Shown: positions 17,954-39,821 of the stretch, in pieces
Position numbering within the stretch: position 1 is the first letter of the stretch
How the letters are laid out: every line of letters begins with the position of its first letter
Source of the DNA: a virus
Taxonomy: Duplodnaviria; Caudoviricetes
Length of the DNA: 60,247 bases
IMG/VR virus record: IMGVR_UViG_3300030380_004437
Span: 1-60,247 of that record
Direction: 5' to 3' (one strand)
Notes under the pieces: generated by a model
The model's input: the letters and a program-made list of their open reading frames with translations, nothing else
What the model was told of the DNA's origin: nothing
Databases searched by the model: none
Position numbers and translations under genes: made by a program

Positions 17954-18330
17954 TTTTCTTTATTGAGTATCTTACGTATCTTTTCTGCTTTTTCATCAGC
18001 TGTGTCTGCGTGTAGTTCGCTATCTACAACTTTCTCTAATTTTAAGTATGGTATTCTCTCATTCGGTACGTACCTCCATGTGTAGCCTTCTTCACCATAT
18101 ACACCAAAGACAGTTTGATTTAAACCTATTTTTATTATCATTGCAGTTTGGTCTTCTAGCAATACTTTATCACCTTCATCAAACGGTGAAAATAATCTAA
18201 AGAATAGACCTTTCATAAAACTTACTGCGTAATCTTTTACAGCTAGACCAAGAAGCATGGTCAGTAAGAAACCGATAAACTGTATATAGAAGTCGTTTAA
18301 CTCTATTTCAAACATGGTCATGTCGTACAT
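17950..18330 (-). CDS. Small membrane protein resembling MscS TM3/beta domain
   Basis: TM helix followed by PFDEGDKVLL...IIKIGLNQTVF...YVPN. Confidence 0.5.
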   Translation of the reverse strand: MYDMTMFEIELNDFYIQFIGFLLTMLLGLAVKDYAVSFMKGLFFRLFSPFDEGDKVLLEDQTAMIIKIGLNQTVFGVYGEEGYTWRYVPNERIPYLKLEKVVDSELHADTADEKAEKIRKILNKEK

Positions 18331-19193
18331 TAGTCATCAGAAAAATACTTTCTCAATCTTTTCAAGTTTTGTTCTAATTTGTACGGATCCATTCTTTCTG
18401 CTACCTCATCAATAATTTTGTCGTCTATTTTTCCCGTAGATTTTCTTATTTTCATGAGATCATCATTTAATACAATCATCCTTTGGATAGGTTGGTCTAC
18501 ACCTGTGCCTTTCGTCATATTGAATATTAAAGAACCTACTCCTTGTTTCTGTAGGGCAGCACTTATTTGAGGATCAAAGTTTTTAGGGAAATACATCATA
18601 TTTGGATTTTCCATAAAATTCGTTATGTCTCTAGCTTGAAACTGTGACGGTGTGACTGATTCTATACGAGCATTTTTCCCAGGTTTCATATTTTTAAGCA
18701 TGGTTGCTATACCAAAGGGTAAGTTTTCTACATCATACATACCTTTAGTGTTGACGTCTACAGTGTACACTTTACCAAATTTTTTGCCTCTGTTTGCATA
18801 TGCAGCTGCATCTGTAAAATCGTCGGTGAGATATACTCCGCCTCTTTGCATTGATGGGTTAAGTACGTTTGGCATGCCTTCTACTTGTTTGGTAAGTTTT
18901 GTTATACCTTGGTTGAGTGAACCATGGAGCATGGGCTTTGCTTCATTCAATATAAATTTACCTGCTCCTTTAATGGGTGCTGCTGCAGGAATAACTTCAA
19001 AACCTGCAAGAACCTGATCGCCTAGCGACGCATCAGGTGATAACGTCATGTATGAATAACCAGGAATGAGAGAAGCCAGACCTTCTAGTTTATTTAATCC
19101 TCTGTATGATTTCCTTGGGTCAATGCCTAAGTATTCTTCAAGTGCTAATGCTACCCTGTCTTTTCTGGTTGGTTTGGTTCCCACTACTGCCAT
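18330..19193 (-). CDS. Hypothetical protein with possible ADP-ribosyltransferase-like (ART-PolyVal-like) domain
   Basis: LHGS...GGVYLTDD...AAAYA...GKVYTVDV pattern. Confidence 0.4.
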   Translation of the reverse strand: MAVVGTKPTRKDRVALALEEYLGIDPRKSYRGLNKLEGLASLIPGYSYMTLSPDASLGDQVLAGFEVIPAAAPIKGAGKFILNEAKPMLHGSLNQGITKLTKQVEGMPNVLNPSMQRGGVYLTDDFTDAAAYANRGKKFGKVYTVDVNTKGMYDVENLPFGIATMLKNMKPGKNARIESVTPSQFQARDITNFMENPNMMYFPKNFDPQISAALQKQGVGSLIFNMTKGTGVDQPIQRMIVLNDDLMKIRKSTGKIDDKIIDEVAERMDPYKLEQNLKRLRKYFSDD

Positions 19194-19251
19194 AATTCAA
19201 AAGTAGAAAAATTTTGCAAAAAAATTTTTACAACATCTTCTATAACGTCGA

Positions 19252-19280
19252 ATGATATAGGGTATATGGGGAAAAGTAAA
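19252..19280 (-). promoter_or_regulatory. Class I promoter for the morphogenesis operon
   Basis: TTTACT-N17-TATCAT upstream of ATG 19193. Confidence 0.5.
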
Positions 19281-19312
19281 TCTGTACTTAAATGTGACTT
19301 AAAATCCTACAT

Positions 19313-19327
19313 GGGTGGGTGGGAGGG
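19313..19327 (+). other. Potential G-quadruplex GGGTGGGTGGGAGGG
   Basis: Four G3 tracts with 1-nt loops in an AT-rich genome; related copy at 19943-19962. Confidence 0.6.
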
Positions 19328-19449
19328 TGCAGGCACGCTATAAGGGGGGTAGCCCCCTAGTATAAGTTAAGTAAAAAGTAAAGGCATTTTTTCCTATATA
19401 ACTATAAGTTATTTACTTATATACTTTTAAATATACTTATTATTTACTA

Positions 19450-19477
19450 TTTACTTTTAAGTTAATAAGCGTATTAT
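19450..19477 (+). promoter_or_regulatory. Class I promoter (TTTACT-N16-TATTAT)
   Basis: Same architecture as 20064-20091; precedes paralogous gene. Confidence 0.7.
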
Positions 19478-19541
19478 AAACGTATTAGCTTAATTATTAA
19501 CCCTTTAAATTTAGCTAATTTAATTAACTAAAGGGCTTACT

Positions 19542-19745
19542 AAGGTACTTAAAATAGCTACTAAGTATAACTTAAACGCTAAAATAGTACTAGGTAATAC
19601 GGCTAAACTAGGCGAGAAAAACTCGGCTAAGTACAAAAGCTGGGTAGGTAAAACGGTTAAAGAAGTTTTTACTACTGGGCAAGGTACGGTTGATATAACC
19701 TATGCTATTAAAGTGGGCGGTATAAAACCTGTCCCTACCGAATAA
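19542..19745 (+). CDS. Small-domain family paralogue 1, no ATG (AAG at the homologous start position, or ATA 19554)
   Basis: KVLKIATKYNLNAKIVLGNTAKLGEKNSAKYKSWVGKTVKEVFTTGQGTVDITYAIKVGGIKPVPTE*; clearly homologous to 20155-20364; in-frame TAA at 19521; AAAGGG RBS, promoter and hairpin retained. Confidence 0.7.
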   Translation, partial: KVLKIATKYNLNAKIVLGNTAKLGEKNSAKYKSWVGKTVKEVFTTGQGTVDITYAIKVGGIKPVPTE

Positions 19746-19760
19746 AACGGTTTTAGTAAC

Positions 19761-19784
19761 GGCTAGGGGGTAAAACCCCTAGCC
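19761..19784 (+). terminator. Hairpin after paralogue 1
   Basis: GGCTAGGGG-GTAAAA-CCCCTAGCC; weak U-tract. Confidence 0.6.
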
Positions 19785-19810
19785 CTATTACTATATAAAG
19801 AACATACGAG

Positions 19811-19929
19811 CATCCGAACAACCATCTTTCTAAGATCTGCTAGCAGATCTGAATTGCGTGGCACATGCTTCATGTATTGGGGGCAGACGTTTTGATCTTT
19901 GTGTGTGTGTCATGCGATCTGATCTGATG
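19811..19929. repeat. SATS-dense block 1
   Basis: 11 GATC/CATG/CATC/GATG tetramers counted, plus (GT)5. Confidence 0.8.
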
Positions 19930-20063
19930 TGTTATCTACTTTGGGTGGGTGGGTGGTGAGGGAGCCGTATTATACCTTACATTTACTTTGGGGTAAAGCT
20001 TTTGATTTACTTATAACTTTTTATTATACCGTATAGCTAGAACTTATATACTTAACTTTCCGC

Positions 20064-20091
20064 TTTACTTTCATATTTATTAGCGTATTAT
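20064..20091 (+). promoter_or_regulatory. Class I promoter (TTTACT-N16-TATTAT)
   Basis: GCTTTACTTTCATATT is identical to the upstream part of the minus-strand promoter at 20915-20943. Confidence 0.75.
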
Positions 20092-20154
20092 ATACCTAAT
20101 GTTTAGTTATTAACCCTTTAAATTAAACATTTCCGACTAATAAAGGGTACTATA

Positions 20155-20364
20155 ATGGTGATTAAAATTAGTACTAAATACGATCTTAACGCTAAAATAG
20201 TTTTAGGTAGTAATATAGGACGCCTTGGTGAAAAAAACTCAGCTAAATACAAAAGCTGGGCTAATAAAACCGTAGCGGAAATATTCAAAACGGGTCAAGG
20301 ATCTGTTGACATTACCTACGCTATTAAGGTAAAAGGTATTCAAGAAGTACCTTCAGCTAAGTAA
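20155..20364 (+). CDS. Small-domain family paralogue 2
   Basis: RBS AAAGGG, own promoter and terminator; homologous to 19542-19745. Confidence 0.8.
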   Translation: MVIKISTKYDLNAKIVLGSNIGRLGEKNSAKYKSWANKTVAEIFKTGQGSVDITYAIKVKGIQEVPSAK

Positions 20365-20375
20365 GGCTGGGAACT

Positions 20376-20407
20376 GAGGGGGTGTAAAGCCCCCTCTCTT
20401 CTTTTTT
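20376..20407 (+). terminator. Intrinsic terminator
   Basis: GAGGGGG-TGTAAAG-CCCCCTC followed by TCTTCTTTTTT. Confidence 0.8.
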
Positions 20408-20419
20408 ACTACCCACGTC

Positions 20420-20576
20420 GATCCGATCGTGGTACGTGGTATTCTCTCTCTCAATGCGATCTGATCTGAAATGGTTATTGTAGTTGTAGTTGTGGTTGTT
20501 GTAATTATATAGGGGGAAGATGTTTTGATCTTGGGGGCACGGATTTTGATTTGACAATCCTTATGCCGATCCGATC
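20420..20576. repeat. SATS-dense block 2 with (TC)n and (TTGTAG)n-like tracts
   Basis: GATC pairs 5 bp apart at 20420/20425, 20458/20463, 20568/20573; lies between two convergent terminators. Confidence 0.75.
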
Positions 20577-20590
20577 TGAAGCAGGTATAT

Positions 20591-20618
20591 AAGAAGAGGG
20601 GCACTCTTCAGCACCCCT
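20591..20618 (-). terminator. Terminator of paralogue 3
   Basis: Minus strand AGGGGTGCT-GAAG-AGTGCCCCT followed by CTTCTT. Confidence 0.6.
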
Positions 20619-20632
20619 AATCTCATTCCCAG

Positions 20633-20866
20633 TTATTTAAAAGTCAGGAATCCACACTTTAGATCATAGACCAAGTCCGCCATTACTACAAGTCTTGGTT
20701 TAAGATCAAGAGCCTCTTGAGGCGTCTTCCCATTAAGTATAGGTTGACGCTCTGCGTTGTGCACAGCTCTTGGCGTTTTACTAGTTGCCACTAGTTCACG
20801 ATCCATATTTTCACGAACATAAGCGTTATTTATAACGATCGGTTTAGTTAAGTTTTTAGTAGTCAC
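20633..20866 (-). CDS. Small-domain family paralogue 3
   Basis: GTG start with AAGGAGG RBS; HNAER...GKTPQEAL...DLVYDLKCGFL. Confidence 0.75.
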   Translation of the reverse strand: MTTKNLTKPIVINNAYVRENMDRELVATSKTPRAVHNAERQPILNGKTPQEALDLKPRLVVMADLVYDLKCGFLTFK

Positions 20867-20914
20867 AATGACCCTCCTTAATTAATAGCTAAAACCATTT
20901 TTAACTATTTATAT

Positions 20915-20943
20915 AGTATAGCTAAGAACAATATGAAAGTAAA
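20915..20943 (-). promoter_or_regulatory. Class I promoter (TTTACT-N17-TATACT)
   Basis: Read directly; upstream of paralogue 3. Confidence 0.8.
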
Positions 20944-20968
20944 GCTAGATGTAAAGTTATTTAACGAA

Positions 20969-21177
20969 GATCACATCGTGTACTACACGTAGATCACAGT
21001 GCCATGGCACATGGTTCATGGGTATGTGTGTGTGTAACCCAGTTCGGATTGTGATGGGGGAAGATGTTTTGACGATGAACTCTGGACCATGGACCTAGAT
21101 CTGATCTGATTTCCGATCGCATGTGGTTCCTGGACCATGGGATTGTGATCGGGTGCCATGATTTGATGATTGTGATC
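20969..21177. repeat. SATS-dense block 3
   Basis: About 19 SATS tetramers, several at 10-11-bp spacing; GATCTGATCTGAT and (TG)n. Confidence 0.8.
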
Positions 21178-21371
21178 CTATTGCCCTATTGACGATTGTC
21201 CATAATTCATGGTTCTTTGTCCTTTCCTCAAGTATTTTGTGCCTTGTGTCAGAGTCCGTGGTTTCCTGGTTTCTTATATAGGGTCTAGAATACCTGTAAA
21301 TCATACTGCAATTATCTTTCCCATGCTTTATCTGCACCATGCACCACGACCCAAACACCACCCATTCTCAC

Positions 21372-21476
21372 CCTATTACCAAGAAACAGCCAATAGGTCG
21401 CTAATAGGGTAGCCAATAGGTCAAGAAAAGCGATGTACATCAGTGCTTCTAGACTCATGCCTATTAGCGTATTAGC
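21372..21476. repeat. GCYAATAGG iteron-like cluster A
   Basis: Direct copies at 21389, 21400, 21412; inverted copies at 21460 and 21469. Confidence 0.65.
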
Positions 21477-21528
21477 AAATCAGAGATATTTTAAGAAAAA
21501 TGTTTTATAAAATTGGTGAGATAATAAT

Positions 21529-21601
21529 AAGAAAGTGGTGTGAGAGAGTATTAACCCTAACTCCCTCACACCGTCACAGACAATTTGGGAGGGTCTGTGA
21601 C
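21529..21601 (-). terminator. Tandem hairpins ending the early minus-strand cluster
   Basis: GTCACAGAC...GTCTGTGAC (21573-21601) and GGTGTGAG...CTCACACC, followed on the minus strand by CTTTCTT. Confidence 0.6.
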
Positions 21602-21614
21602 TAGCTACTAAAAC

Positions 21615-21815
21615 CTATTCATCTTCCCATATTGGCGTGTTGCCACATAATTTAAATACTTCAACAATGGACTTTTGTTCACCAGTCTCACCGTTAGTAA
21701 GTTTCTCAGTCTCGCCACATGGTCGACAGAACTCAATCCAGTCACCACCCAGCACTAACATATTAGTACCTGACGCAGGACGCCTAGTTTCACAAATGCT
21801 ACAATAATTCGCCAT
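21615..21815 (-). CDS. Small CxxC-CxxC protein
   Basis: CSIC...CRPC; GAGGAGG RBS; class II promoter. Confidence 0.7.
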   Translation of the reverse strand: MANYCSICETRRPASGTNMLVLGGDWIEFCRPCGETEKLTNGETGEQKSIVEVFKLCGNTPIWEDE

Positions 21816-21851
21816 AATTTTTTCCTCCTCTTATAACTAATTTATAAATAT

Positions 21852-21880
21852 AGTATAGGTAAGATCCTAAAAGATGCCTA
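21852..21880 (-). promoter_or_regulatory. Class II promoter TAGG-CATC-N6-GATC-N5-TATACT
   Basis: One of 11 copies of a 29-bp motif, each upstream of an RBS and ATG. Confidence 0.85.
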
Positions 21881-21887
21881 TACTTCT

Positions 21888-22157
21888 CTAAGATTCTTGG
21901 CTATCTTCCGCTATAACATCATCCATGATTTCTTCTAGTTCTCCTGGTCCCACTAAACTATAATAATTAGTTTTCGCAATTACCCAAAAACCACCGAAAA
22001 TATCTGACCACTCTTCAGGATAACCCACTTCTTCAGCTTTAGCTTTATTACCAACGAACACAGCACCATATTTATTTTCAAGATGATTAATTAACCATTT
22101 TATAGGTTTAACCTCTTCATCTGTTTTAAAACTATTTAGTACATCAACAATCACCAT
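21888..22157 (-). CDS. Early hypothetical protein
   Basis: AAGGAGG RBS and own promoter. Confidence 0.7.
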   Translation of the reverse strand: MVIVDVLNSFKTDEEVKPIKWLINHLENKYGAVFVGNKAKAEEVGYPEEWSDIFGGFWVIAKTNYYSLVGPGELEEIMDDVIAEDSQES

Positions 22158-22190
22158 AAGTTCCTCCTTCTATAATTAACTTATTAATAA

Positions 22191-22219
22191 AGTATAGGTA
22201 AGATCTTATAAGATCCCTA
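22191..22219 (-). promoter_or_regulatory. Class II promoter (GATC/GATC)
   Basis: TAGGGATCTTATAAGATCTTACCTATACT. Confidence 0.85.
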
Positions 22220-22226
22220 TAGTTCT

Positions 22227-22526
22227 CTAATGATTTTCGTTATTCTCAAGGTAATGAATTTCCGCATCAAATGAGTAAGTCATTAGCTTATAAAGATCTA
22301 AATCCGTAAACTTACCGTTGATCTTAAACATTATATCATTAGCAAAATCACCAGTAGTAGCACCTTCTGCTTGAACGTAAGTATTATGATCACAAACATA
22401 GAAGTAGATGAAATTACCATTACCATTTACCCTAAGTTCATGAGGGATTTGAAATTTAATTTGAAGAGCTTTAGCTAAATGATATTCATTCGGCTGAAGT
22501 TCTATAAATTTAACATCTTCAGTCAT
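22227..22526 (-). CDS. Early hypothetical protein
   Basis: GGAGG RBS and own promoter. Confidence 0.7.
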   Translation of the reverse strand: MTEDVKFIELQPNEYHLAKALQIKFQIPHELRVNGNGNFIYFYVCDHNTYVQAEGATTGDFANDIMFKINGKFTDLDLYKLMTYSFDAEIHYLENNENH

Positions 22527-22561
22527 AAGTTGATCCTCCGTATTAATTAACTTATTAATAA

Positions 22562-22590
22562 AGTATAGCTAGGATCCTAAAGGATGCCTA
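22562..22590 (-). promoter_or_regulatory. Class II promoter (CATC/GATC)
   Basis: TAGGCATCCTTTAGGATCCTAGCTATACT. Confidence 0.85.
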
Positions 22591-22607
22591 TCTTGATGGC
22601 TATATTC

Positions 22608-23006
22608 TTAAGCACCCCATGCCCACTTACTACCCTCAAGAGGAACCTTGAAGTATTCTGTGAGTGCAGACGCACCTAGCGAACCACCGAGGGATAACGC
22701 TAAGTAAAAATGCATGCCACATTTACTATAAGATACCTGTATGATGCTGTATGAGCCACCGTCAGAGACAGGGAAGTAACAACTATCATAGACAGTATGC
22801 CAAGGGGCTAATTGGTCTTTCATGACAAACTTATAATGTTCATCATCATGACCGTCACACTCACCAAAATGGTAGAGTATTTTTTGATCATCATTGAGAT
22901 GATCCAGTATTACATCAAGAATACTTTGAACTCTTGCCTGTTCGGGGTCTGAGTTATCAAAGACGTCTGGATCTAATACGTCTGATTTACTAATAAGATC
23001 TAACAT
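22608..23006 (-). CDS. Early acidic hypothetical protein
   Basis: GGAGG RBS and own promoter. Confidence 0.7.
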   Translation of the reverse strand: MLDLISKSDVLDPDVFDNSDPEQARVQSILDVILDHLNDDQKILYHFGECDGHDDEHYKFVMKDQLAPWHTVYDSCYFPVSDGGSYSIIQVSYSKCGMHFYLALSLGGSLGASALTEYFKVPLEGSKWAWGA

Positions 23007-23035
23007 ATAATCCTCCGTTTTACTTATTAACTACT

Positions 23036-23064
23036 AGTATATAAAGCATCATAAAGGATGCCTA
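23036..23064 (-). promoter_or_regulatory. Class II promoter (CATC/GATG)
   Basis: TAGGCATCCTTTATGATGCTTTATATACT. Confidence 0.85.
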
Positions 23065-23082
23065 TCTTCCCTCGCTATATTC

Positions 23083-23637
23083 TTACTCAGAAGCCCAGTG
23101 AATCAAGTGGTGTTGATCAATATGATCCACTAAGTAATCAAGACCAAACCCATGAGACAAAAAGCTAAACGGACGCACTGTATCAGTGGTGACTATTCCC
23201 CAGCTGTCAGACGCTATAAAACCTGAGTCTTGTTGATAATACTGATGTTCCAGTAATACATAAACAGTATCATCACGAGTTATCTTCCACTCATGTAGAC
23301 ATTCACTAGCCTCTCGATGATACATTCCACTGAATACATCAACGACTTCTTCTGACAACTTTTTACGGTTCTCAGGAGACAGTTCCAGAACTACACGAGC
23401 ACCTGTTTCCTCACCAAAGCTGGCATACGCTAAAGGTATATCACCAGTAAACTCTTCGGGAGTAAACTTGCCACCGAATGGATCCATAAAGTTCACAAGA
23501 TCTTTTGAATCTTGAGCAAACAAATCCTCGGGACTGATCTCATAATAAGTAAGATCATAAAATTGATTATGATTTTCTCTGATAGCTCGCACCACAGGCT
23601 TCACATAATCAACATAGTTTTTTAAATTATTAGTCAT
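23083..23637 (-). CDS. Early hypothetical protein
   Basis: GGAGG RBS and own promoter. Confidence 0.7.
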   Translation of the reverse strand: MTNNLKNYVDYVKPVVRAIRENHNQFYDLTYYEISPEDLFAQDSKDLVNFMDPFGGKFTPEEFTGDIPLAYASFGEETGARVVLELSPENRKKLSEEVVDVFSGMYHREASECLHEWKITRDDTVYVLLEHQYYQQDSGFIASDSWGIVTTDTVRPFSFLSHGFGLDYLVDHIDQHHLIHWASE

Positions 23638-23666
23638 GTTTCCTCCATTAACTAACTTATAACTAA

Positions 23667-23695
23667 AGTATAAGTAAGATGCTAAGCGATCCCTA
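23667..23695 (-). promoter_or_regulatory. Class II promoter (GATC/CATC)
   Basis: TAGGGATCGCTTAGCATCTTACTTATACT. Confidence 0.85.
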
Positions 23696-23713
23696 GCATC
23701 TTCCTTATAATCA

Positions 23714-23941
23714 TTAACCTATTTCGACTTGGTCAAGAGTAAATCTAGGACCGAGTGACTCTTTGATATGTTGTACTAGTGTAGACCAGTTTTTTACGTC
23801 TTCGCTGGTGATAGTAAAGAAGTCTTCTAAACCATTACCTGCTTCATCTTGATAACCGATGCTGACTACATCATCGAGAGCAAATCTCCCGTAACATTCA
23901 ACACCATCGATTTCTTTATAAAAATTATAATTTACATTCAT
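23714..23941 (-). CDS. Early acidic hypothetical protein
   Basis: GGAGG RBS and own promoter. Confidence 0.7.
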   Translation of the reverse strand: MNVNYNFYKEIDGVECYGRFALDDVVSIGYQDEAGNGLEDFFTITSEDVKNWSTLVQHIKESLGPRFTLDQVEIG

Positions 23942-23975
23942 AATTCCTCCGTTGGTAAGTAAATTAATATAATTA

Positions 23976-24004
23976 AGTATAGGTAAGATGCTAAGCGATG
24001 CCTA
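23976..24004 (-). promoter_or_regulatory. Class II promoter (CATC/CATC)
   Basis: TAGGCATCGCTTAGCATCTTACCTATACT. Confidence 0.85.
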
Positions 24005-24031
24005 ACATCTTCCCTATAATGGTTAGTTAAT

Positions 24032-24244
24032 TTATGTTGCTACAAAGTCTTTATCGATGAGATCATCCGTACCTACTCTTCCCCACAGCTCTAGACCTAA
24101 CCTGATGTAAACAGATTCGAGCTTTGCATCGCCGAGAACTTTAGTATAGACTTGCTCTTCAGGTGTTCCTTCTTTGTAGACCAGGAACCTAGTAGCAGGG
24201 TCGATTGACCAACCCTGCTGTTTAAATCGTTCAACCTCTAGCAT
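24032..24244 (-). CDS. Early hypothetical protein
   Basis: Overlaps the upstream gene end. Confidence 0.6.
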   Translation of the reverse strand: MLEVERFKQQGWSIDPATRFLVYKEGTPEEQVYTKVLGDAKLESVYIRLGLELWGRVGTDDLIDKDFVAT

Positions 24245-24455
24245 CTTTCACCTTATTTTCTATGATGTCAATATCATCTAATAGGTCAGACACTCTGTTA
24301 ATACTACTAAGGTCAGACACTGGTAAGTCCCAGCGTTGTACAATAGTCCTAAAATTATCACGAGCATGTAATATGTCGGATATTATTTCTTTTAAATCAG
24401 TACACACTTGTTGCTGTGCATCTTGATTTAAACCTTCTTTAAACTCTTCGTTCAT
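24231..24455 (-). CDS. Early hypothetical protein
   Basis: GGAGG RBS and own promoter. Confidence 0.7.
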   Translation of the reverse strand: MNEEFKEGLNQDAQQQVCTDLKEIISDILHARDNFRTIVQRWDLPVSDLSSINRVSDLLDDIDIIENKVKDARG

Positions 24456-24488
24456 ACTTCCTCCGTTGTACGTTAAGTTAATAATTAA

Positions 24489-24517
24489 AGTATAGTAAAC
24501 ATCATTTTAGATGCCTA
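24489..24517 (-). promoter_or_regulatory. Class II promoter (CATC/GATG)
   Basis: TAGGCATCTAAAATGATGTTTACTATACT; its TAG is the stop codon of the upstream gene. Confidence 0.85.
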
Positions 24518-24859
24518 TACTTCGTCGCTATCTTCTTTTAGGTAAAATTCTACAGTACCGAAGGCACACGTGCCACCGTCATAGACTACTTCCTCACGAG
24601 ACTCAACACATAAGAATTTATACTTATTAGTCTCAAAGATAAGTAGAGTCTTGTTGTCGACACCACCGTGCGGACCGTTATATTCAAACTTACCTAGTTC
24701 ATGAGACATAGTGAGAGTGGCGAGTTCTCGGAGTGCTTCAATGAAACACCCACCGTCCTCGCCATCATAAGCATAAGTTCCGTTATAGCTTAAAGCCGTA
24801 TCACGAGCGAAACATACATCGACATGTTCCTCTAACTGTTCTACATTATCAAACCACAT
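24515..24859 (-). CDS. Early acidic hypothetical protein
   Basis: ORF track; follows the RHH-like gene. Confidence 0.65.
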   Translation of the reverse strand: MWFDNVEQLEEHVDVCFARDTALSYNGTYAYDGEDGGCFIEALRELATLTMSHELGKFEYNGPHGGVDNKTLLIFETNKYKFLCVESREEVVYDGGTCAFGTVEFYLKEDSDEV

Positions 24860-24862
24860 GAC

Positions 24863-25030
24863 TTACCCGTTATTCTCAGTATCAAACCATGCTTTAGTTG
24901 CTGCTCTAATAGCATTCGTTCTACCTATCTTAGCACCTGTTCGTTGGCTAAGCATTTCTGCGATATAGTCTACGTCCTCAGCTAAATCTTCGGGTAGTGC
25001 TACATTTATTCGCTTATCTTGATTATTCAT
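24863..25030 (-). CDS. Ribbon-helix-helix-like DNA-binding protein (55 aa)
   Basis: Not in track. MNNQDKRINVALPEDLAEDVDYIAEMLSQRTGAKIGRTNAIRAATKAWF...; AAGGAG RBS and own promoter. Confidence 0.6.
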   Translation of the reverse strand: MNNQDKRINVALPEDLAEDVDYIAEMLSQRTGAKIGRTNAIRAATKAWFDTENNG

Positions 25031-25056
25031 GATAACTCCTTTATTTAATATAATTA

Positions 25057-25085
25057 AGTATAGTAAGGATCATATACAATCCCTA
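25057..25085 (-). promoter_or_regulatory. Class II promoter (GATT/GATC)
   Basis: TAGGGATTGTATATGATCCTTACTATACT. Confidence 0.8.
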
Positions 25086-25165
25086 TCTTCTTCCTAAATT
25101 TTTTTAAGCTAAATCCAGCCCTTTCGAGCGTAGCAATTTAAAAGGTATAGTTAGGTATTATAAAT

Positions 25166-25199
25166 AAAGAAAGGGCTTAATCGAGCGTTGATTAAGCCC
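25166..25199 (-). terminator. Intrinsic terminator
   Basis: GGGCTTAATC...GATTAAGCCC with minus-strand TTTCTTT tail. Confidence 0.75.
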
Positions 25200-25225
25200 C
25201 ATTCGTACTTGAAGAGTTTAGCTAC

Positions 25226-25627
25226 CTAGTAGCCGTTTAAGAGTCTTTCTAAAGCCATGTCGAATTTAGTAGACATTTTGACTTTATCACCTGTATCTTT
25301 TTCTAACTCACGCACTTCAAAGAGATGTTCGCTTCTTTGACCATCAGTAAGTTTAAGTAGAACAGATTGATATTGCCTATTATTTTCTTCTGACACTTCA
25401 GTGAGTGGGTATAAGTTTACAAGACCATAAGTAAGTTTAGCTAAATCATAACCACTATCTATATAACCCCTTTTGATAAGATGTTCCCGTAAGTTCCTCA
25501 ACTCACTGGCTCTTTCTAAATCTACCTCTGAGTCACGGTGCCAATAATAACTATTAACTTCTTCCGCTACTTTCTGCAAGATACCGTGTACAGCGTTTAT
25601 GTCTGATTGATTATCAAATACTATCAT
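25226..25627 (-). CDS. Early hypothetical protein
   Basis: ATGA coupling to upstream small ORF. Confidence 0.65.
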   Translation of the reverse strand: MIVFDNQSDINAVHGILQKVAEEVNSYYWHRDSEVDLERASELRNLREHLIKRGYIDSGYDLAKLTYGLVNLYPLTEVSEENNRQYQSVLLKLTDGQRSEHLFEVRELEKDTGDKVKMSTKFDMALERLLNGY

Positions 25628-25755
25628 AGCACTTGCCCCAGTTCATGTAGCTCGTTAAGGAGTTTCTTTTGAGCAGTCACTGCTTTTTGTATTTTCTTGA
25701 GGTTTTTACGATTACCTACATGCTCTATATGTTTGATTATAGTTTCTGTTTTCAT
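25624..25755 (-). CDS. Small hypothetical protein (43 aa, MKTETIIKHIEHVG...)
   Basis: GGAG RBS, class II promoter, coupled to next gene. Confidence 0.6.
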   Translation of the reverse strand: MKTETIIKHIEHVGNRKNLKKIQKAVTAQKKLLNELHELGQVL

Positions 25756-25784
25756 ATTATCTCCATAATAAAATTAATATATAA

Positions 25785-25813
25785 AGTATAGTAGGGATCA
25801 CTAACGATCCCTA
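25785..25813 (-). promoter_or_regulatory. Class II promoter (GATC/GATC)
   Basis: TAGGGATCGTTAGTGATCCCTACTATACT. Confidence 0.85.
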
Positions 25814-33578: not shown

Positions 33579-33858
33579 TTTTACTTTTTATGAGTCGTAT
33601 ACCATTTTCCCTGAGCCATCCTCTCAATACATCATTATGTATATCTGGATATCTTTCTTTGACTTTTTTGCAGACCTCATTATATACTCTTAAACCCTTG
33701 TAGTAATCACTATGTCCTAACCTGCACATACGAATTATTTGCCATACCCTCTGTTTTGTAATTTTATATTTCATACCTATCTCCTCTAAAGTAGCATCAG
33801 AATTTTTGTATATCATATAGATATTGAAGTACATTCTTTTTTTATCTTGCCGTTTCAT
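33538..33858 (-). CDS. Stand-alone sigma70 region 4-like HTH protein
   Basis: TLEEIGMKYKITKQRVWQI vs sigma70 r4.2 TLEEVGKQFDVTRERIRQI. Confidence 0.65.
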   Translation of the reverse strand: MKRQDKKRMYFNIYMIYKNSDATLEEIGMKYKITKQRVWQIIRMCRLGHSDYYKGLRVYNEVCKKVKERYPDIHNDVLRGWLRENGIRLIKSKNGSEISTSNNKLV

Positions 33859-34264
33859 TTGTTATGTTCTCCCTCAAAGAAGTGCTAGAAAATTCATGTT
33901 GTCTAGAGTTATAATAAATTTCTTTATTAGAGCATGAGTTATTAAACTCTGTCCAACCAGTAAATGCTTTTCCTTTATATTCCTCCCCTATTATTCTTAT
34001 ATCCCACCTTACCATATTCAGTAGGTTCAATAAATCTTGCTCTGTTTCATAACAAATTATTTCGTCCACATATCTACAACCTTTTAATTGTATTTGTCTT
34101 TCTATCAAACTTTGCACAGGTTTATTTTTATTTGATCTTTCTACGCTAGGGTCAGTGTGTAGTCCTACAATTAAATAGTCACAGACACCTTTAGCTTCTT
34201 CTAACATAGCAACATGTCCTGCGTGCAATAAATCAAAAGCACTAAATGTTATACCTATCTTCAT
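33842..34264 (-). CDS. HIGH-motif cytidylyltransferase (TagD-like glycerol-3-phosphate cytidylyltransferase family)
   Basis: FSAFDLLHAGH...LIVGL...KPVQSLIER...VDEI...SSTSLR. Confidence 0.85.
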   Translation of the reverse strand: MKIGITFSAFDLLHAGHVAMLEEAKGVCDYLIVGLHTDPSVERSNKNKPVQSLIERQIQLKGCRYVDEIICYETEQDLLNLLNMVRWDIRIIGEEYKGKAFTGWTEFNNSCSNKEIYYNSRQHEFSSTSLRENITNETAR

Positions 34265-37138: not shown

Positions 37139-38188
37139 TTATTTTATTCTTCTAGATAGCCATCTAAAGCAAGCTTCCATCCAATCATCAGCTTTACAAT
37201 GTTGTATTTCTATAAGTGCTTCTTCCTTACTCTCCTCTTTAGAGAGATACCAAGCATCTTGTATAGGTACTGCGACGTCAGTGAAAAATGGATCTTTGAA
37301 TTCCATTTGCTGAAAAGGTTTTCTAGTAAAAAACATAATTAAGTCTGCTTCCCAATCACGAAAGTCTACACTTACCATTGGATAGGGATTTACTTCATCT
37401 AGTTTATACGGATTGTGATTAATTAATAGCTTTATTGTGTAATAATCAAAAGAGTCTATTTGTAGTAATTTTTCTCTCATAGGCTCATATACATTTAAGT
37501 ACGCATGATAATTATTACTCACTTGATAATACTTACCCATTCTTATACCTGTTGCTGCAGCTACGAACTCATGTAACATTGACATGTGTACCACGTTTGC
37601 TCCATATGCACCCCAGATAATATCATTTGACCTATTTGATACTGTCATATCGAGACGAGGACTGTAGCCGTCTATGTGTACAGTTTTAAAGTATATAGTC
37701 GTATTACAGGGTACGTCAGCTCCATCTCGCCCTAAATCGCCCACAGCGTCCCACATTTGTAGGACACAGCGTCTATCGTAAGGGTCGTGTTTAAGTCTAT
37801 CAATAATAATTCTTACTTGGTCTTTACCAGCAAAATCTTTAAATATAGGGTCTTTGAAATAACTTCTCCATCTCCAGCCATACGCTCCCCACAATGTTTC
37901 ACCATCATCACTATATCTACTCATACCTTTATTGTAGTACTCCATGGTAGCTAAGTCATTAAAACCAGCCAGCATCCATAAACCTTCCATAAAATGGAAA
38001 AAGGGGTTAGCGTCTCTATCTGGGTCAAATAAAACTCTCTCGCTAGGGTTAGCATAAACTGTAGTAACTGGTTCTTCTACAGTGATGACTTTACCGTTTC
38101 TAGTATTTTCTATATGACCATTCGAGTCAAGTAAATCCATACCTCTTAAAAAGGCATCGTTTACATTTCTACAGTTTAATGTGTGCAT
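37139..38188 (-). CDS. Thymidylate synthase-fold dUMP hydroxymethylase (5-hmdU synthesis)
   Basis: Catalytic DVPCN; RSNDIIWGAYGAN (Asn implies dUMP specificity); NPFFHFMEGLWMLAG and GAYGWRWR as in YuA/M6-type enzymes; clustered with a 5-hmdU DNA kinase. Confidence 0.8.
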   Translation of the reverse strand: MHTLNCRNVNDAFLRGMDLLDSNGHIENTRNGKVITVEEPVTTVYANPSERVLFDPDRDANPFFHFMEGLWMLAGFNDLATMEYYNKGMSRYSDDGETLWGAYGWRWRSYFKDPIFKDFAGKDQVRIIIDRLKHDPYDRRCVLQMWDAVGDLGRDGADVPCNTTIYFKTVHIDGYSPRLDMTVSNRSNDIIWGAYGANVVHMSMLHEFVAAATGIRMGKYYQVSNNYHAYLNVYEPMREKLLQIDSFDYYTIKLLINHNPYKLDEVNPYPMVSVDFRDWEADLIMFFTRKPFQQMEFKDPFFTDVAVPIQDAWYLSKEESKEEALIEIQHCKADDWMEACFRWLSRRIK

Positions 38189-38964
38189 TATTCTCCTATT
38201 CCTTCTTTATATGCTTTTTTCCAACCTATGATTACATCCTTACGAGGTAATCCGTTCCAAGCAGTTTTAGTTTGTTTCTCTACTACCTTAACGCATGTAG
38301 GGTGTAAAGAGTGTAATCTTTCAGCACCTTCATTATGAACATCAATAGTTCTCCACTCACTACAACCACCGTCAGCGTTAGATGATTTTTGACCTTGTGC
38401 ATAATAAAAACTTACCTTACATGCTTTACCTTTTCTCAATAGTTGTAAAGCTATATCAAAATCTTCCATTACCCTAGTCCTGCCCCACTCTATGTCATCA
38501 GGAAACTCGTTTAAGTTATAAGCGAGTACTCTCATGTATCGAGTATTTTCTACAGATAAATCTTCTACCCTATTATTACCTTCCCTAGCACTTACACCCA
38601 CGTGGGCATAACCTTGACTAAGCCACTCGTCTAATAAACCAAACATAGCAGGATACTCATCTGACTCTAAGTATCGTAAGTGCCAGTCGGTAGGGCTTTT
38701 ACGAATGTAAAAACGTAAATCATCATCTAGCATAACTATATGGGGGTCATCACTATGCTCTATAATATATTTTCGTTTAGCCCCTATGCCTATACAGTCC
38801 TCTGGGACTACCATTTTAGGTGTGTTTTGATATTTAGTGTACAGGTGTTGCTCATCATGATCAATAACTAATGTTACATCACCATTAGCTTGCATCCATT
38901 GGGGAAACCATTTTAAAGTTTCTTGATTAGTGGGTCTACCACGAGTAGGAATATATATTTTCAT
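38188..38964 (-). CDS. GT-A glycosyltransferase, TET-associated (TAGT)/JGT-like
   Basis: IYIPTRGR, MLDDD (DxD), EDFDIALQLL, GGCS motifs. Confidence 0.75.
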   Translation of the reverse strand: MKIYIPTRGRPTNQETLKWFPQWMQANGDVTLVIDHDEQHLYTKYQNTPKMVVPEDCIGIGAKRKYIIEHSDDPHIVMLDDDLRFYIRKSPTDWHLRYLESDEYPAMFGLLDEWLSQGYAHVGVSAREGNNRVEDLSVENTRYMRVLAYNLNEFPDDIEWGRTRVMEDFDIALQLLRKGKACKVSFYYAQGQKSSNADGGCSEWRTIDVHNEGAERLHSLHPTCVKVVEKQTKTAWNGLPRKDVIIGWKKAYKEGIGE

Positions 38965-39821
38965 AGGTATTGTGCCTCATTAAATTTTGGGTATTTATCG
39001 TATTTATATTTTGCTCTAGGTCTACCCTCACCTAACCTAGTTCTCTCATATTTATCAAACTCACATAAACTGTGCTCTATCTCTCTCATCTCTAGCTTTG
39101 GTACATGTGGCTCTAAGTATTTATCTGCTACTTGTAAAAGTTTATACATCTCTGCGTTCCAGTCATGTTTGTGCGAGTCCCAAGTAAGCGTTCTTAAATT
39201 CATTCTATTTAATCCACGCTTTGCTCCTGGACCTGGATTTGCCCAAGTATAAAGATCACGAGCGTTCCTTAATAAATGAGTGTGTCTTAAATCTGTAACA
39301 ACTTCGTATGACATAAATCCACTAAATCCTGCGTAAGGAAGATAATTTTTCCAAGTATCTTCTAAACTACTAGAGACTATCTCTGGGTGGTTATTATATA
39401 AAGGTGTAAGTATTTTGTCTACTGTTTGTTCTATTTTAGTACCACCTAAAGTACCTGTCAACATATAAGCACCTGTGTAAACTTTTTTCCCACTATCCAT
39501 TCTATCCTGCATTATAGCTTTTACCTTTTCTGGTTGCCAATCCTCAGGGAAACCTATCTCTTCTAGGGTGGATGGCCAATTTATTTGACGAGCCACGGAC
39601 ATTGAGAAAGCTAAGTTAGGGTGGTCAAAGTAAGGCTCTCTCCAGTTTGTTCTTACCCATTCTGTGACTGTGTCTAGTTCTCTAAACACATTACAAAAAC
39701 TATAAGTTTTTAATATCTTATCTTCTGTCCACGGTGGATGAAGACCGTTTTTTCTCCTTAAATATATTTGGTGTCTTTCATTTATGTAGTTAAAAAACCC
39801 TTCTACTTTATCTTGTACCAT
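38961..39821 (-). CDS. 5-hmdU DNA kinase (aGPT-Pplase1 family)
   Basis: ERHQIY.RR..G..PPWTEDKIL..YSFCNVFRELD; FMSYEVVTD; GPGAKRGL; IEHSLCEFDKY. Confidence 0.85.
   Translation of the reverse strand: MVQDKVEGFFNYINERHQIYLRRKNGLHPPWTEDKILKTYSFCNVFRELDTVTEWVRTNWREPYFDHPNLAFSMSVARQINWPSTLEEIGFPEDWQPEKVKAIMQDRMDSGKKVYTGAYMLTGTLGGTKIEQTVDKILTPLYNNHPEIVSSSLEDTWKNYLPYAGFSGFMSYEVVTDLRHTHLLRNARDLYTWANPGPGAKRGLNRMNLRTLTWDSHKHDWNAEMYKLLQVADKYLEPHVPKLEMREIEHSLCEFDKYERTRLGEGRPRAKYKYDKYPKFNEAQYL

What the first reader, a model, noticed from the sequence alone, without database searches (positions are those of the whole stretch)
19393..19614. 222-bp stretch with zero TG, TC, CA or GA dinucleotides
Reading base by base I find none of these four steps between the TC at 19392-19393 and the GA at 19614-19615, while AC, GT, AG and CT steps are frequent. 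At roughly 20% GC about 30-35 would be expected (rough estimate). The zone covers the promoter, the leader and the first 24 codons. 19742-19800 is also free, and 19965-20150 is depleted. The four steps are the two strand-symmetric pairs of T followed by S, the pattern expected from selection against a bulky modification of such thymines.
Basis: seen in the sequence. Interest (0 to 1): 0.85.

Follow-up and report, generated by a model that had tools for sequence, protein, structure and literature searches.

The report
Modification-motif-free promoter island in marine phage
A marine phage that carries genes for chemically decorating its thymines keeps one 222-base promoter-and-gene-start region completely free of the two-letter contexts (T followed by G or C, on either strand) where such decoration is reported to occur, apparently so that this stretch stays undecorated and readable.

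Summary
No TG, TC, CA or GA occurs between 19392 and 19614, where about 40 are expected (P~1e-19). No other run in the 60,247-bp phage genome exceeds 60.

Selection acts on the property itself:
- 28 of 30 G/C runs are flanked 5'-A and 3'-T.
- Of 62 substitution states seen in 7 relatives, only 4 touch such a step, although 53% of random substitutions would.
- A ~40-nt segment is replaced in some relatives yet stays free.
- The start codon is ATA where single-copy relatives have ATG, with dN/dS ~0.1.

The zone holds a conserved TTTACT-16-TATTAT promoter, a leader, and 20 codons of a small gene of unknown function.

The phage encodes a dUMP-hydroxymethylase-like enzyme, a TAGT glycosyltransferase and a PF18723 protein. 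I detected neither the P-loop 5-hmdU kinase nor the amino-acid:DNA transferase.

Published work infers thymidine hypermodification at T-G/T-C. It also shows that bulky or phosphorylated hmU shuts off bacterial RNA polymerase, while plain hmU enhances it.

Best reading, at about 0.5 confidence: a cis-encoded hypermodification-free island. More distant PF18723 phages have weaker islands. ViI, SP10 and M6 have none. No modification data exist for this phage.

The parts
19393..19614 (.). Core zone: 222 nt with no TG, TC, CA or GA on either strand
   Evidence: 28 of 30 G/C runs are flanked 5'-A and 3'-T; the other two are the zone's edges.
19334..19385 (.). Upstream extension of the zone: a 51-nt free run separated from the core only by CA at 19385 and TC at 19392. 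Includes the hairpin AAGGGGGGTAGCCCCCT.
19313..19329 (+). G-tract GGGTGGGTGGGAGGGTG (G-quadruplex-like) at the upstream border. Identical in 8 of 8 sequences that hold it; L008 has a different G-run at this position.
19450..19477 (+). Sigma-70-like promoter TTTACT-16-TATTAT of gene copy 1. Both hexamers are consensus variants written without T-S steps.
   Evidence: In relatives the -35 is invariant, and the -10 varies only at positions 4-5 (TATTAT, TATAGT, TATCAT, TATAAT). The same promoter type sits before copy 2. The transcription start was not mapped.
19501..19535 (+). Conserved inverted repeat CCCTTTA ... TAAAGGG in the leader. Also present before copy 2. Possible operator.
   Evidence: As an RNA hairpin it is not better than shuffles (z +0.96), so a DNA-level protein site is inferred, not shown.
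19541..19545 (+). Shine-Dalgarno-like TAAGG, 8 nt before ATA
   Evidence: Read from the sequence. Inference.
19554..19745 (+). Small gene copy 1 (63 codons), apparently starting at ATA. The first 20 codons lie in the zone.
   Evidence: The ATA aligns with the ATG of the single-copy relatives L003, L011 and L012. dN/dS is about 0.1 among the 6 ATA-type copies. It is the most depleted gene against synonymous resampling: 15 observed vs 31.7 expected, z -4.7. The 19 codons after ATA hold 0 steps vs a mean of 7.05, and 0 of 20,000 resamples reached 0.
19754..19793 (+). Terminator-like hairpin after copy 1, inside the second free run (19740-19800)
   Evidence: -24.3 kcal/mol, z -3.79.
19801..19964 (.). 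Spacer rich in T-S steps (56 observed vs 40.6 expected). It holds GATCTG repeats, a (TG)n run and a second G-tract. Its length varies between relatives.
20064..20091 (+). Promoter TTTACT-16-TATTAT of gene copy 2. The surrounding 19965-20150 is depleted (12 vs 36.4) but not free.
20155..20364 (+). Small gene copy 2 (69 aa, ATG start), 75% identical to copy 1
   Evidence: 28 vs 37.2 steps expected.
20633..20866 (-). 77-aa ORF, possibly a distant paralogue of the small genes. Its homologues in G001 and G002 sit behind free runs of 55-65 nt.
   Evidence: The profile comparison is only suggestive (E 6.8e-4, probability 27%).
22167..22196 (-). Early promoter: -10 TATACT through the 5'UTR up to the SD. 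One of eight such segments, which are nearly free of T-S steps.
22539..22567 (-). Early promoter -10 to SD segment
23646..23672 (-). Early promoter -10 to SD segment
23950..23981 (-). Early promoter -10 to SD segment
24464..24494 (-). Early promoter -10 to SD segment
25039..25062 (-). Early promoter -10 to SD segment
25764..25790 (-). Early promoter -10 to SD segment
29614..29639 (-). Early promoter -10 to SD segment
37139..38188 (-). Thymidylate-synthase homologue, likely a dUMP hydroxymethylase (the source of 5-hmdU)
   Evidence: Pfam PF00303; phrog_5131 at 8e-113; 44% identity over the full length to M6 gp58. The activity is inferred.
38188..38964 (-). TAGT-family glycosyltransferase
   Evidence: PF20691 at 3.8e-23, 82.9 bits vs cut-off 27.5; phrog_842.
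38961..39821 (-). PF18723 ('HMUDK_hel') protein, the M6 gp55 type. It overlaps the glycosyltransferase gene by 4 nt and has no Walker A motif.
33842..34264 (-). Cytidylyltransferase-like nucleotidyltransferase. It might make an activated donor.
   Evidence: Its role is inferred.

Best explanation
The zone is a 'T-S desert' held by selection. It is a stretch of about 220-280 bp that avoids, on both strands, every thymine followed by G or C.

In phages whose thymidine is made as 5-hydroxymethyl-dU and then further modified on the DNA, T-S is the context in which the bulky hypermodification has been inferred. This marine phage carries such a module: a dUMP-hydroxymethylase-like enzyme, a TAGT glycosyltransferase and a PF18723 protein.

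I propose that the zone escapes the phage's own post-replicative hypermodification and stays as plain hmU DNA. That would keep a strong sigma-70-type promoter, its upstream AT-rich region, a conserved inverted repeat, the leader and the first 20 codons of a small conserved gene accessible to RNA polymerase and regulators.

Shown: the absence of the steps, selection for that absence, its conservation in relatives, the promoter-like anatomy, and the gene content.

Inferred: that T is replaced by hmU, that the further modification is T-S-specific in this phage, that it hampers transcription initiation, and that the small gene is strongly or early expressed.
For: 1. Statistics. There are 0 steps against about 40 expected, P~1e-19. 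Only this dinucleotide set is a strong outlier among 15.

2. Selection on the property itself.
- 28 of 30 G/C runs are flanked A_T (P 3e-15 at p=0.25).
- Of 62 unique substitution states in 7 relatives, only 4 lie in a T-S/S-A step. By contrast, 356 of 666 possible single substitutions (53%) would create one (P 3e-15).
- The segment 19413-19450 is replaced by unrelated sequence in L002, L006, L009 and L010 yet stays free.
- The free run is 222-258 nt in 6 of 6 ATA-type sequences. In L011 the only break is the ATG start codon itself (166+61).

3. Cost paid in coding sequence.
- The start codon is ATA instead of ATG.
- Asp is replaced by Asn relative to copy 2.
- The 19 codons after ATA hold 0 steps against 7.05 expected from synonymous resampling.
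- dN/dS is nevertheless about 0.1.

4. The same bias appears in eight early promoters. From the -10 to the SD (226 nt) there are 5 T-S/S-A steps against 41 A-S/S-T steps, with 26.7 expected of each. The 40 nt upstream of each are normal.

5. Gene content: thymidylate-synthase homologue, TAGT glycosyltransferase and PF18723 protein.

6. More distant PF18723-bearing complete genomes G001-G004 have non-homologous free runs of 55-97 nt next to small genes, including one of 97 nt at 48% GC. The T-S set ranks first of 15 in 3 of the 4 and second in G004. HTVC027P has a related terminase but no PF18723 hit, and it has no such runs (longest 33).

7. Palindromes made only of G and C are purged: CCGG 0/63, GGCC 6/63, GCGC 4/63, CGCG 3/63. 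T-containing palindromes are not purged, and HTVC027P shows no purge. This fits a protection that sits on T.

8. Literature.
- T-S is inferred as the hypermodified context in M6, ViI and phiW-14 (PMC6449724).
- Bulky major-groove groups block the interaction between RNA polymerase and the promoter (PMC11550810 introduction).
Against: - No chemical or sequencing evidence exists that this phage's DNA is modified, or where.
- The published T-S preference rests on restriction-resistance patterns. Its authors ascribe it to the P-loop 5-hmdU kinase. That kinase (PF18748) and the amino-acid:DNA transferase (PF18724) were not detected here or in the relatives searched (PF18748 in G001-G004; PF18724 in G001 and G003). 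The same searches found PF18748 in 3 of 4 known phages and PF18724 in 2 of 2. The pathway here is therefore different, probably glycosylation, and its context preference is unknown.
- ViI, SP10 and M6, the phages with measured hypermodification, show no island (longest runs 38, 31 and 37). A T-S-directed modification does not by itself force such islands.
- The eight early promoters keep conserved GATC motifs (T-S steps) in their -35/spacer part. Promoter recognition as such therefore tolerates, or even uses, those thymines.
- The zone spans about -92 to +130 around the predicted start site, much more than an RNA polymerase footprint.
- The start site, timing and level of expression are unknown.
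- The small protein has no known fold or family.
Confidence: 0.5

Rival explanations
1. This is the same modification-avoidance principle serving a different purpose. The zone would be a replication origin, R-loop or DNA-unwinding element, or a packaging or other protein-assembly site. Such a site must stay free of bulky, duplex-stabilising thymine adducts, and the promoter would serve to activate it.
For: The zone is far larger than a promoter footprint. It is AT-rich (23% GC) with repeated TTTACT/ATACTT words, and it is flanked by G-tracts and by arrays dense in GATC (25 GATC in 19800-21400). It lies in the only large non-coding island of the genome, between the two gene blocks. Metagenome contigs of relatives end in this island (L005/L007).
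Against: The downstream half of the zone is coding sequence under purifying selection. In G003 and G004 the depletion follows a whole small gene rather than an intergenic element. No origin or pac signals were identified. The contig ends coincide with variable tandem repeats, which break assemblies anyway.
Confidence: 0.15
2. T-S/S-A steps are avoided because some other factor reads them, not because of the phage's own thymine hypermodification. Candidates are a host or phage nuclease or defence protein with a T-S preference, or a DNA-binding protein (perhaps the small gene product) that coats DNA lacking these steps.
For: The enzyme family to which the literature ties T-S preference is absent. 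ViI, SP10 and M6 lack islands. The conserved inverted repeat and the repeated words in the zone suggest protein binding. Small DNA-binding-like genes accompany the islands in G001-G004.
Against: No candidate factor was identified. Avoidance on both strands over 220-260 bp, through sequence turnover, is more than a binding site needs. The clade-wide purge of G/C-only palindromes and the modification genes point to T-directed chemistry.
Confidence: 0.15
3. The absence is a by-product of a conserved AT-rich regulatory sequence, of a mutational bias, or of assembly or sequencing error.
For: The zone is about 88-91% identical among the relatives compared, more conserved than the neighbouring protein in L003 (64% amino-acid identity). 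AT-rich DNA has fewer such steps anyway.
Against: A composition-matched null still expects about 40 steps. The equally AT-compatible A-S/S-T steps are abundant. Variable positions and a replaced segment keep the property. Non-homologous islands exist in G001-G004, one at 48% GC. No single deamination-type process removes TG, TC, CA and GA while keeping CG, AC, AG, GT and CT. The zone recurs in independent assemblies of the IMG/VR and metagenome collections (L002, L006, L008-L012), and DNA contigs of two further public runs from different studies cover it.
Confidence: 0.03

Closest known systems
Thymidine hypermodification of phages M6, ViI, phiW-14 and SP10 (5-hmdU made before replication, then modified on the DNA; Lee et al. 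2018 seen as a listing only; Lee et al. 2021, PMC8989533; Flodman et al. 2019, PMC6449724)
   Same: A thymidylate-synthase homologue 44% identical to M6 gp58 and a PF18723 protein are present. PF18723 is shared with all four of these phages. The dinucleotides avoided here are exactly the T-G/T-C context inferred for their modified thymines.
   Different: Neither the P-loop 5-hmdU DNA kinase (PF18748) nor the amino-acid:DNA transferase (PF18724) was detected. Instead, a TAGT glycosyltransferase overlaps the PF18723 gene. ViI, SP10 and M6 have no T-S-free island. A motif-free island was not mentioned in the passages and sections I read.
Restriction-site and methylation-motif avoidance in phage genomes (general knowledge, recalled)
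   Same: Selection removes a short sequence word because of what an enzyme would do at that word. The genome also shows the classical form: CCGG, GGCC, GCGC and CGCG are nearly absent.
   Different: Here the avoided word is a degenerate dinucleotide (T-S). The avoidance is local and total rather than genome-wide: the genome-wide observed/expected ratio is about 1.0. The enzyme being evaded would be the phage's own.
In vitro transcription switch on hmU DNA (Vanikova et al. 2019, PMC6457204; Raindlova et al. 2016 as summarised in PMC11550810)
   Same: It supplies the mechanism I invoke: plain hmU boosts E. coli RNA polymerase output to 250-350%, whereas phosphorylated or bulky 5-substituents shut it down.
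   Different: Those were artificial, fully substituted templates with the Pveg promoter. Nothing there concerns natural phage promoters or sequence-encoded escape.
Base J in kinetoplastids and unmethylated CpG islands in vertebrates (recalled, analogy only)
   Same: A DNA modification state at promoters or terminators governs transcription. CpG islands are regulatory regions defined by their relation to a dinucleotide-targeted modification.
   Different: The organisms and enzymes are different. In CpG islands the dinucleotide is retained because it is unmodified, whereas here the dinucleotide is purged so that no modification can occur.
Phage T-dioxygenases with NTC or NTG preference (O'Toole et al. 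2026, PMC13229309, section 8 read)
   Same: They show that phage enzymes acting on T in DNA can have exactly T-C or T-G context preference.
   Different: Those are TET/JBP-type enzymes. The 2OG oxygenase here is of the AlkB-like PF13532 type, and HTVC027P, which has no island, has one annotated too.

Membership tests
Kinase-dependent thymidine hypermodification pathway (M6/ViI/SP10/phiW-14 type) | Thymidylate-synthase-family dUMP hydroxymethylase supplying 5-hmdU | tested here: met
   ORF 37139-38188: PF00303 1.1e-22, phrog_5131 8e-113, 44% identity over 351 columns to M6 gp58. This is homology only; substrate and product were not tested.
Kinase-dependent thymidine hypermodification pathway (M6/ViI/SP10/phiW-14 type) | P-loop 5-hmdU DNA kinase (Pfam PF18748; M6 gp54, ViI gp67) | tested here: not met
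   No PF18748 match at E<=10 in six frames or at E<=1. The latter search found it in ViI, SP10 and M6 but missed phiW-14 (3 of 4 positives). No tblastn match to M6 gp54. The only Walker A motif in the genome is in the UvrD helicase.
Kinase-dependent thymidine hypermodification pathway (M6/ViI/SP10/phiW-14 type) | Amino acid:DNA transferase (clade 2 aGPT-Pplase, Pfam PF18724) | tested here: not met
   No match at E<=1 in the window, G001 or G003. M6 and ViI were both found by the same search.
Kinase-dependent thymidine hypermodification pathway (M6/ViI/SP10/phiW-14 type) | PF18723 helical-domain protein (M6 gp55 type; fused to the kinase in SP10) | tested here: met
   ORF 38961-39821: PF18723 6.5e-46, covering 4-277 of 281 profile positions. 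41-43% identity to Yuavirus homologues. The family is found in ViI, SP10, phiW-14 and M6 but not in HTVC027P.
Kinase-dependent thymidine hypermodification pathway (M6/ViI/SP10/phiW-14 type) | Hypermodified thymine located at T-G/T-C | not testable with these tools
   This needs LC-MS and native-DNA sequencing. The only indirect sign is the avoidance pattern itself.
Glycosylated 5-hydroxymethylpyrimidine DNA (TAGT-type glycosyltransferase) | TAGT-family glycosyltransferase encoded next to the hydroxymethylpyrimidine source | tested here: met
   ORF 38188-38964: PF20691, 82.9 bits vs cut-off 27.5; phrog_842. It is also present in G001 and G002 but not in G003, G004 or HTVC027P.
Glycosylated 5-hydroxymethylpyrimidine DNA (TAGT-type glycosyltransferase) | Sugar actually attached to hmU in virion DNA | not testable with these tools
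   No chemistry is available.
Sigma-70-type bacterial promoter | -35 and -10 hexamers with a 16-18 nt spacer, conserved in relatives | tested here: met
   TTTACT-16-TATTAT at 19450-19477, 9 of 12 matches. The -35 is invariant in 8 of 8 aligned sequences, and the -10 varies only at positions 4-5.
Sigma-70-type bacterial promoter | Mapped transcription start | tested here: inconclusive
   Only assembled contigs of RNA libraries were available, and these cannot show starts.

The most novel reading that the evidence does not exclude
T-S deserts are a cis-encoded 'blank' in an otherwise hypermodified phage chromosome. In this reading the phage writes, in its own sequence, which promoter regions stay as plain hmU, and so controls which genes fire from modified DNA.

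The pressure would be strong enough to have replaced an ATG start codon by ATA.

The T-S reading would be done not by the kinase but by the PF18723 protein. PF18723 is the one component shared by M6, ViI, SP10, phiW-14 and this kinase-less, glycosyltransferase-bearing marine clade. It would act as a targeting subunit for whichever modifying enzyme sits beside it.
Probability: 0.25. Interest if true: 0.85.

Novelty: new variant of a known kind. Interest (0 to 1): 0.72.

Why it matters
If the reading holds, three things follow.

1. A degenerate dinucleotide target of a DNA hypermodification pathway could be read straight from a genome sequence. That would give a purely computational way to predict modification specificity in uncultured phages.

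2. Hypermodifying phages would be shown to face a conflict between protecting their DNA and transcribing it, and to solve it in cis. The solution would reach as far as giving up a canonical start codon.

3. PF18723, whose role is unsettled, would become a candidate specificity factor. A glycosylation route that uses neither kinase nor transferase would also be implied.

The prediction is sharp: native-DNA sequencing should show a modification gap at 19393-19614, plus small gaps from each early -10 element to its ribosome-binding site.

Tried and rejected
- DNA-level search of the island against 50,697 phage records found no match. Rfam found nothing below E 0.29 on 18500-22500. No tRNAs were found.

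- Identity of the small protein. There were 0 PHROG and 0 Pfam families. The word-indexed search gave 3 near-identical clusters. The search of 1.84 billion representatives gave 5 hits: two are true small relatives and three are repeat proteins matching a short stretch. The AlphaFold model was helical with pLDDT 78.7, but no PDB fold scored E<=0.001. The protein atlas gave nothing usable. The function stays unknown.

- Paralogy of the 77-aa ORF with the small genes is only suggestive (hhalign E 6.8e-4, probability 27%).

- My first assumption that ORF 38961-39821 is the 5-hmdU kinase was wrong. It is the M6 gp55-type PF18723 protein. I then looked for the real kinase and the transferase and found neither. 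The TerS-like ORF 29641-30159 is not the kinase.

- The idea that all promoters are T-S-free was rejected. Early promoters keep conserved GATC in the -35/spacer part, and the structural-operon promoter region is not free either.

- The idea that islands are general to T-S-hypermodified phages was rejected for ViI, SP10 and M6. phiW-14 was not scanned for runs.

- The leader 'hairpin' is not supported as an RNA structure.

- Expression. Contigs of two RNA libraries were laid on 18300-21700. X19 contigs cover 18807-19318 and 19821-21474, and one X20 contig covers 19456-19654. Contigs cannot show starts, strands or levels. The part without X19 cover (19326-19781) proves nothing, and RNA libraries may hold DNA. 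I draw no conclusion from this.

- The more distant genomes G001-G005 gave no match to the small-protein profile. That empty answer had no positive control.

Supplementary files of the papers were not opened. The restriction tables of PMC6449724 and the specificity data sets of PMC13229309 may bear on how firm the T-S rule is.

- The claim that a motif-free island is not in print rests only on searches and on the passages read.
Full report
**Observation**

The window is a whole 60,247-bp virus record. Between the TC at 19392-19393 and the GA at 19614-19615 there is no TG, TC, CA or GA. This 222-step gap is the longest in the genome. The next two gaps, 60 at 19740-19800 and 51 at 19334-19385, flank it, and nothing else exceeds 42.

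The zone is 23.4% G+C (A85 T85 C29 G23).
- 20,000 composition-matched shuffles gave 39.8 +/- 4.7 such steps and never fewer than 23.
- The per-step estimate is P~1e-19.
- 200 genomes shuffled within 200-nt blocks never produced a run above 58.
- Of 15 control sets made of two reverse-complement dinucleotide pairs, only CA/TG+GA/TC stands out (6.06 times the expected longest run). The two sets that share one of its pairs pick up the same place at 108 nt, and the other twelve give 0.74-1.40.

**What the genome is**

This is a tailed phage with nearly all genes on the minus strand. Its terminase is closest to those of Pelagibacter phages HTVC027P and HTVC023P (61% and 56%). The public runs that hold it are marine metagenomes.

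It encodes a family-A DNA polymerase, an AEP primase, UvrD and SNF2 helicases, and Pam3 gp33/gp34-like proteins.

It also encodes a thymidine-modification module:
- a thymidylate-synthase homologue (37139-38188), 44% identical over its full length to M6 gp58;
- a TAGT-family glycosyltransferase (38188-38964);
- a PF18723 protein (38961-39821) whose gene overlaps the glycosyltransferase gene by 4 nt.

**Anatomy of the island**

The zone lies in the only large gene-poor island (19194-21614). This island sits between the start of the structural block and the end of the early block, and it is read on the opposite (+) strand. Two tandem units each contain, in order:
- a G-tract (GGGTGGGTGGG...);
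- an AT-rich stretch with TTTACT words;
- a TTTACT-16-TATTAT promoter (19450-19477 and 20064-20091);
- an inverted repeat CCCTTTA...TAAAGGG;
- a small gene;
- a hairpin terminator.

Both promoter hexamers are consensus variants that can be written without T-S steps, whereas TTGACA cannot.

Copy 2 (20155-20364) starts with ATG. Copy 1 cannot contain ATG, GTG or TTG within the zone. Its ATA at 19554 aligns with the ATG of relatives that have a single gene copy (L003, L011, L012), and a TAAGG lies 8 nt upstream.

Among the six ATA-type sequences dN/dS is about 0.1, so copy 1 is a maintained coding gene.

The zone ends at the first invariant glutamate codon, which cannot be spelled without GA.

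The inverted repeat is not a convincing RNA hairpin (z +0.96), whereas the terminator is (z -3.79).

**Selection acts on the property, not only on the sequence**

- 28 of 30 G/C runs in the zone are flanked 5'-A and 3'-T. The other two are the zone's edges (P 3e-15 at p=0.25).
- In an alignment with seven relatives there are 62 distinct substitution states inside the zone. Only 4 sit in a T-S/S-A step. Two of these are the ATG start and the zone's last base; the other two are a -10 position (TATCAT, in L003 and L012) and position 19404 (in L002). By contrast, 356 of 666 possible single substitutions (53%), and 145 of 222 transitions (65%), would create such a step (P 3e-15).
- A ~40-nt segment (19413-19450) is replaced by unrelated sequence in L002, L006, L009 and L010 and is still free.
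- The free run measures 222 nt (window, L002), 242 (L006), 258 (L008), 233 (L009) and 234 (L010). In L011 it is 166+61, broken only by the ATG. In L003 and L012 it is 82+82+61.
- Given its amino-acid sequence, copy 1 is the most depleted gene of the genome (15 steps against 31.7, z -4.7). Its 19 codons after ATA have 0 against 7.05 expected, and none of 20,000 synonymous resamples reached 0.

**A weaker form of the same bias elsewhere**

Eight early promoters on the minus strand share the form TAGGsATC-N6-GATCyTAsC-TATACT, followed by an AT-rich 5'UTR, GGAGG and ATG.

From the -10 element to the SD (226 nt in all) they hold 5 T-S/S-A steps against 41 A-S/S-T steps, with 26.7 expected of each. 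The 40 nt upstream of each -10 are normal (8-10 steps against 8.2-9.7 expected) and contain the conserved GATC words.

So the avoidance concerns the -10 element and the initially transcribed region, not promoter DNA in general.

**Other genomes**

Four complete, more distant PF18723-bearing IMG/VR genomes (G001-G004; 41-70% identity in that protein) were examined.
- They lack a detectable homologue of the small protein (which had no positive control).
- They nevertheless have clusters of long free runs beside small genes: G003 has 97 nt (at 48% GC), 74 and 67; G004 has 62, 60 and 46; G002 has 65; G001 has 57 and 55.
- In G003 and G004 a whole ~127-aa gene is depleted.
- The T-S set ranks first of 15 in G001-G003 and second in G004.

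HTVC027P has no PF18723 hit, and its longest run is 33.

Against generality, the experimentally studied phages ViI, SP10 and M6 have longest runs of 38, 31 and 37, about what chance gives.

**Modification chemistry and membership**

Flodman et al. (PMC6449724, passages read) found that restriction sites resistant in M6, ViI and phiW-14 DNA share TG/TC. They proposed that the 5-hmdU DNA kinase has this preference.

I first took ORF 38961-39821 for that kinase because of the Pfam name 'HMUDK_hel'. It is not the kinase:
- It has no Walker A motif.
- It corresponds to M6 gp55, not to gp54. The kinase gp54 belongs to PF18748.

No PF18748 member and no amino-acid:DNA transferase (PF18724) was detected in the window or in the relatives searched (PF18748: G001-G004; PF18724: G001 and G003). 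The same searches recovered PF18748 in 3 of 4 known phages and PF18724 in 2 of 2.

The pathway is therefore of a different, undescribed composition: hydroxymethylase homologue, PF18723 protein, TAGT glycosyltransferase, and perhaps the cytidylyltransferase-like enzyme at 33842-34264. Glycosylated hmU is the natural guess. Its context preference is unknown.

One indirect sign points to a T-borne protection. Palindromes without any T are almost absent (CCGG 0 of 63 expected, GGCC 6, GCGC 4, CGCG 3), and similarly so in G003 and G004. T-containing palindromes are not purged. HTVC027P keeps CCGG at 46 of 51 and GGCC at 44 of 51.

**Mechanism proposed**

Thymidine is made as hmdU. A post-replicative enzyme set then adds a bulky group at T-S.

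Where T-S is absent on both strands, the DNA remains plain hmU. In vitro, hmU templates give 250-350% of normal transcription by E. coli RNA polymerase. Phosphorylated hmU cuts this to 10%, and bulky major-groove groups block polymerase-promoter contacts (PMC6457204 and PMC11550810, passages read).

The zone would thus be a permanently 'on-capable' promoter and initial transcribed region for a small gene, and possibly an operator for a regulator.

All steps after 'T-S is absent and selected against' are inference.

**Rivals**

Three rival readings remain:
- the same escape serves an origin, an unwinding element or a packaging site;
- another T-S-reading factor is responsible;
- the absence is a by-product or an artefact.

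The last is contradicted. It is also contradicted by recurrence of the zone in independent assemblies of two collections and in DNA contigs of two further runs from different studies.

**Novelty and limits**

In five literature searches, and in the passages and sections I read, I found no description of a hypermodification-motif-free island or of a start codon changed to avoid one. Supplements were closed.

No modification, start-site or expression data were available. Laid RNA-library contigs cannot decide these points.

Noticed in passing
whole window; also G001-G004 (L032-L045) vs HTVC027P (L001, L067): Four-base palindromes made only of G and C are almost purged: CCGG 0, GGCC 6, GCGC 4 and CGCG 3, each against about 63 expected. 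T-containing palindromes are near expectation or enriched (AGCT 343 vs 195). G003 and G004 show the same purge; G001 and G002 purge only CCGG and GGCC. HTVC027P shows no purge.
   Followed up: partly
window 19554-19556: ATA stands where single-copy relatives have the ATG start codon. It is fixed in 6 of 6 two-copy-type sequences, and the ORF is under purifying selection. A gene caller truncated a relative to 53 aa (P0003), presumably for lack of a canonical start.
   Followed up: partly
window 19313-19329 and 19944-19965: G-quadruplex-like tracts (GGGTGGGTGGGAGGGTG and GGGTGGGTGGGTGGTGAGGGAG) stand at the upstream border of each small-gene unit. The first is identical in all 8 sequences that hold it.
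   Followed up: no
window 19801-19964 and 20400-21400; L006 2640-2750: Arrays very dense in T-S steps lie right beside the desert: GATCTGATCTGA, GGGG-N5-GTTTTGAT words and a (TG)n run. There are 25 GATC in 19800-21400. Relatives carry variable numbers of a TTCCTTGATCT repeat between the two gene copies, and contigs L005 and L007 end here.
   Followed up: no
window 22167-29639, minus strand: A family of eight early promoters has the form TAGGsATC-N6-GATCyTAsC-TATACT. Each has an inverted GATC pair in the spacer, followed by a nearly T-S-free 5'UTR and a strong GGAGG.
   Followed up: partly
window 38188-39821, minus strand: A PF18723 ('5-hmdU DNA kinase helical domain') gene overlaps a TAGT glycosyltransferase gene, in a genome where no kinase (PF18748) and no amino-acid:DNA transferase (PF18724) was detected. 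This gene combination is not among those described in the papers I read.
   Followed up: partly
window 39803-40270, minus strand: A 155-aa ORF directly upstream of the PF18723 gene matches phrog_624 ('DNA binding protein', 1.7e-46) but no Pfam family. It is cysteine- and histidine-rich and may belong to the modification module.
   Followed up: no
window 20466-20579: A simple GTT/GTA-type repeat attracts very large summed contig depth in RNA and DNA runs (21,537 in X19). This is evidently cross-matching of low-complexity sequence from other organisms, not expression.
   Followed up: no
M6 record W04, about 3488-3525 and 29641-29677 (L064, L065): The two longest T-S-free runs of phage M6 (64.5% GC) are near-identical AT-rich elements (GGGGGTT-AAGGTAAGTAAGTTAAGTAAGTTAAG) at two distant sites. 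They could be a small-scale counterpart of the desert.
   Followed up: no
window 33538-33858, minus strand: A 106-aa ORF has weak sigma-70 region 4 / YlxM-like HTH matches (1.1e-5 and 5.8e-4). It is a candidate phage transcription factor.
   Followed up: no
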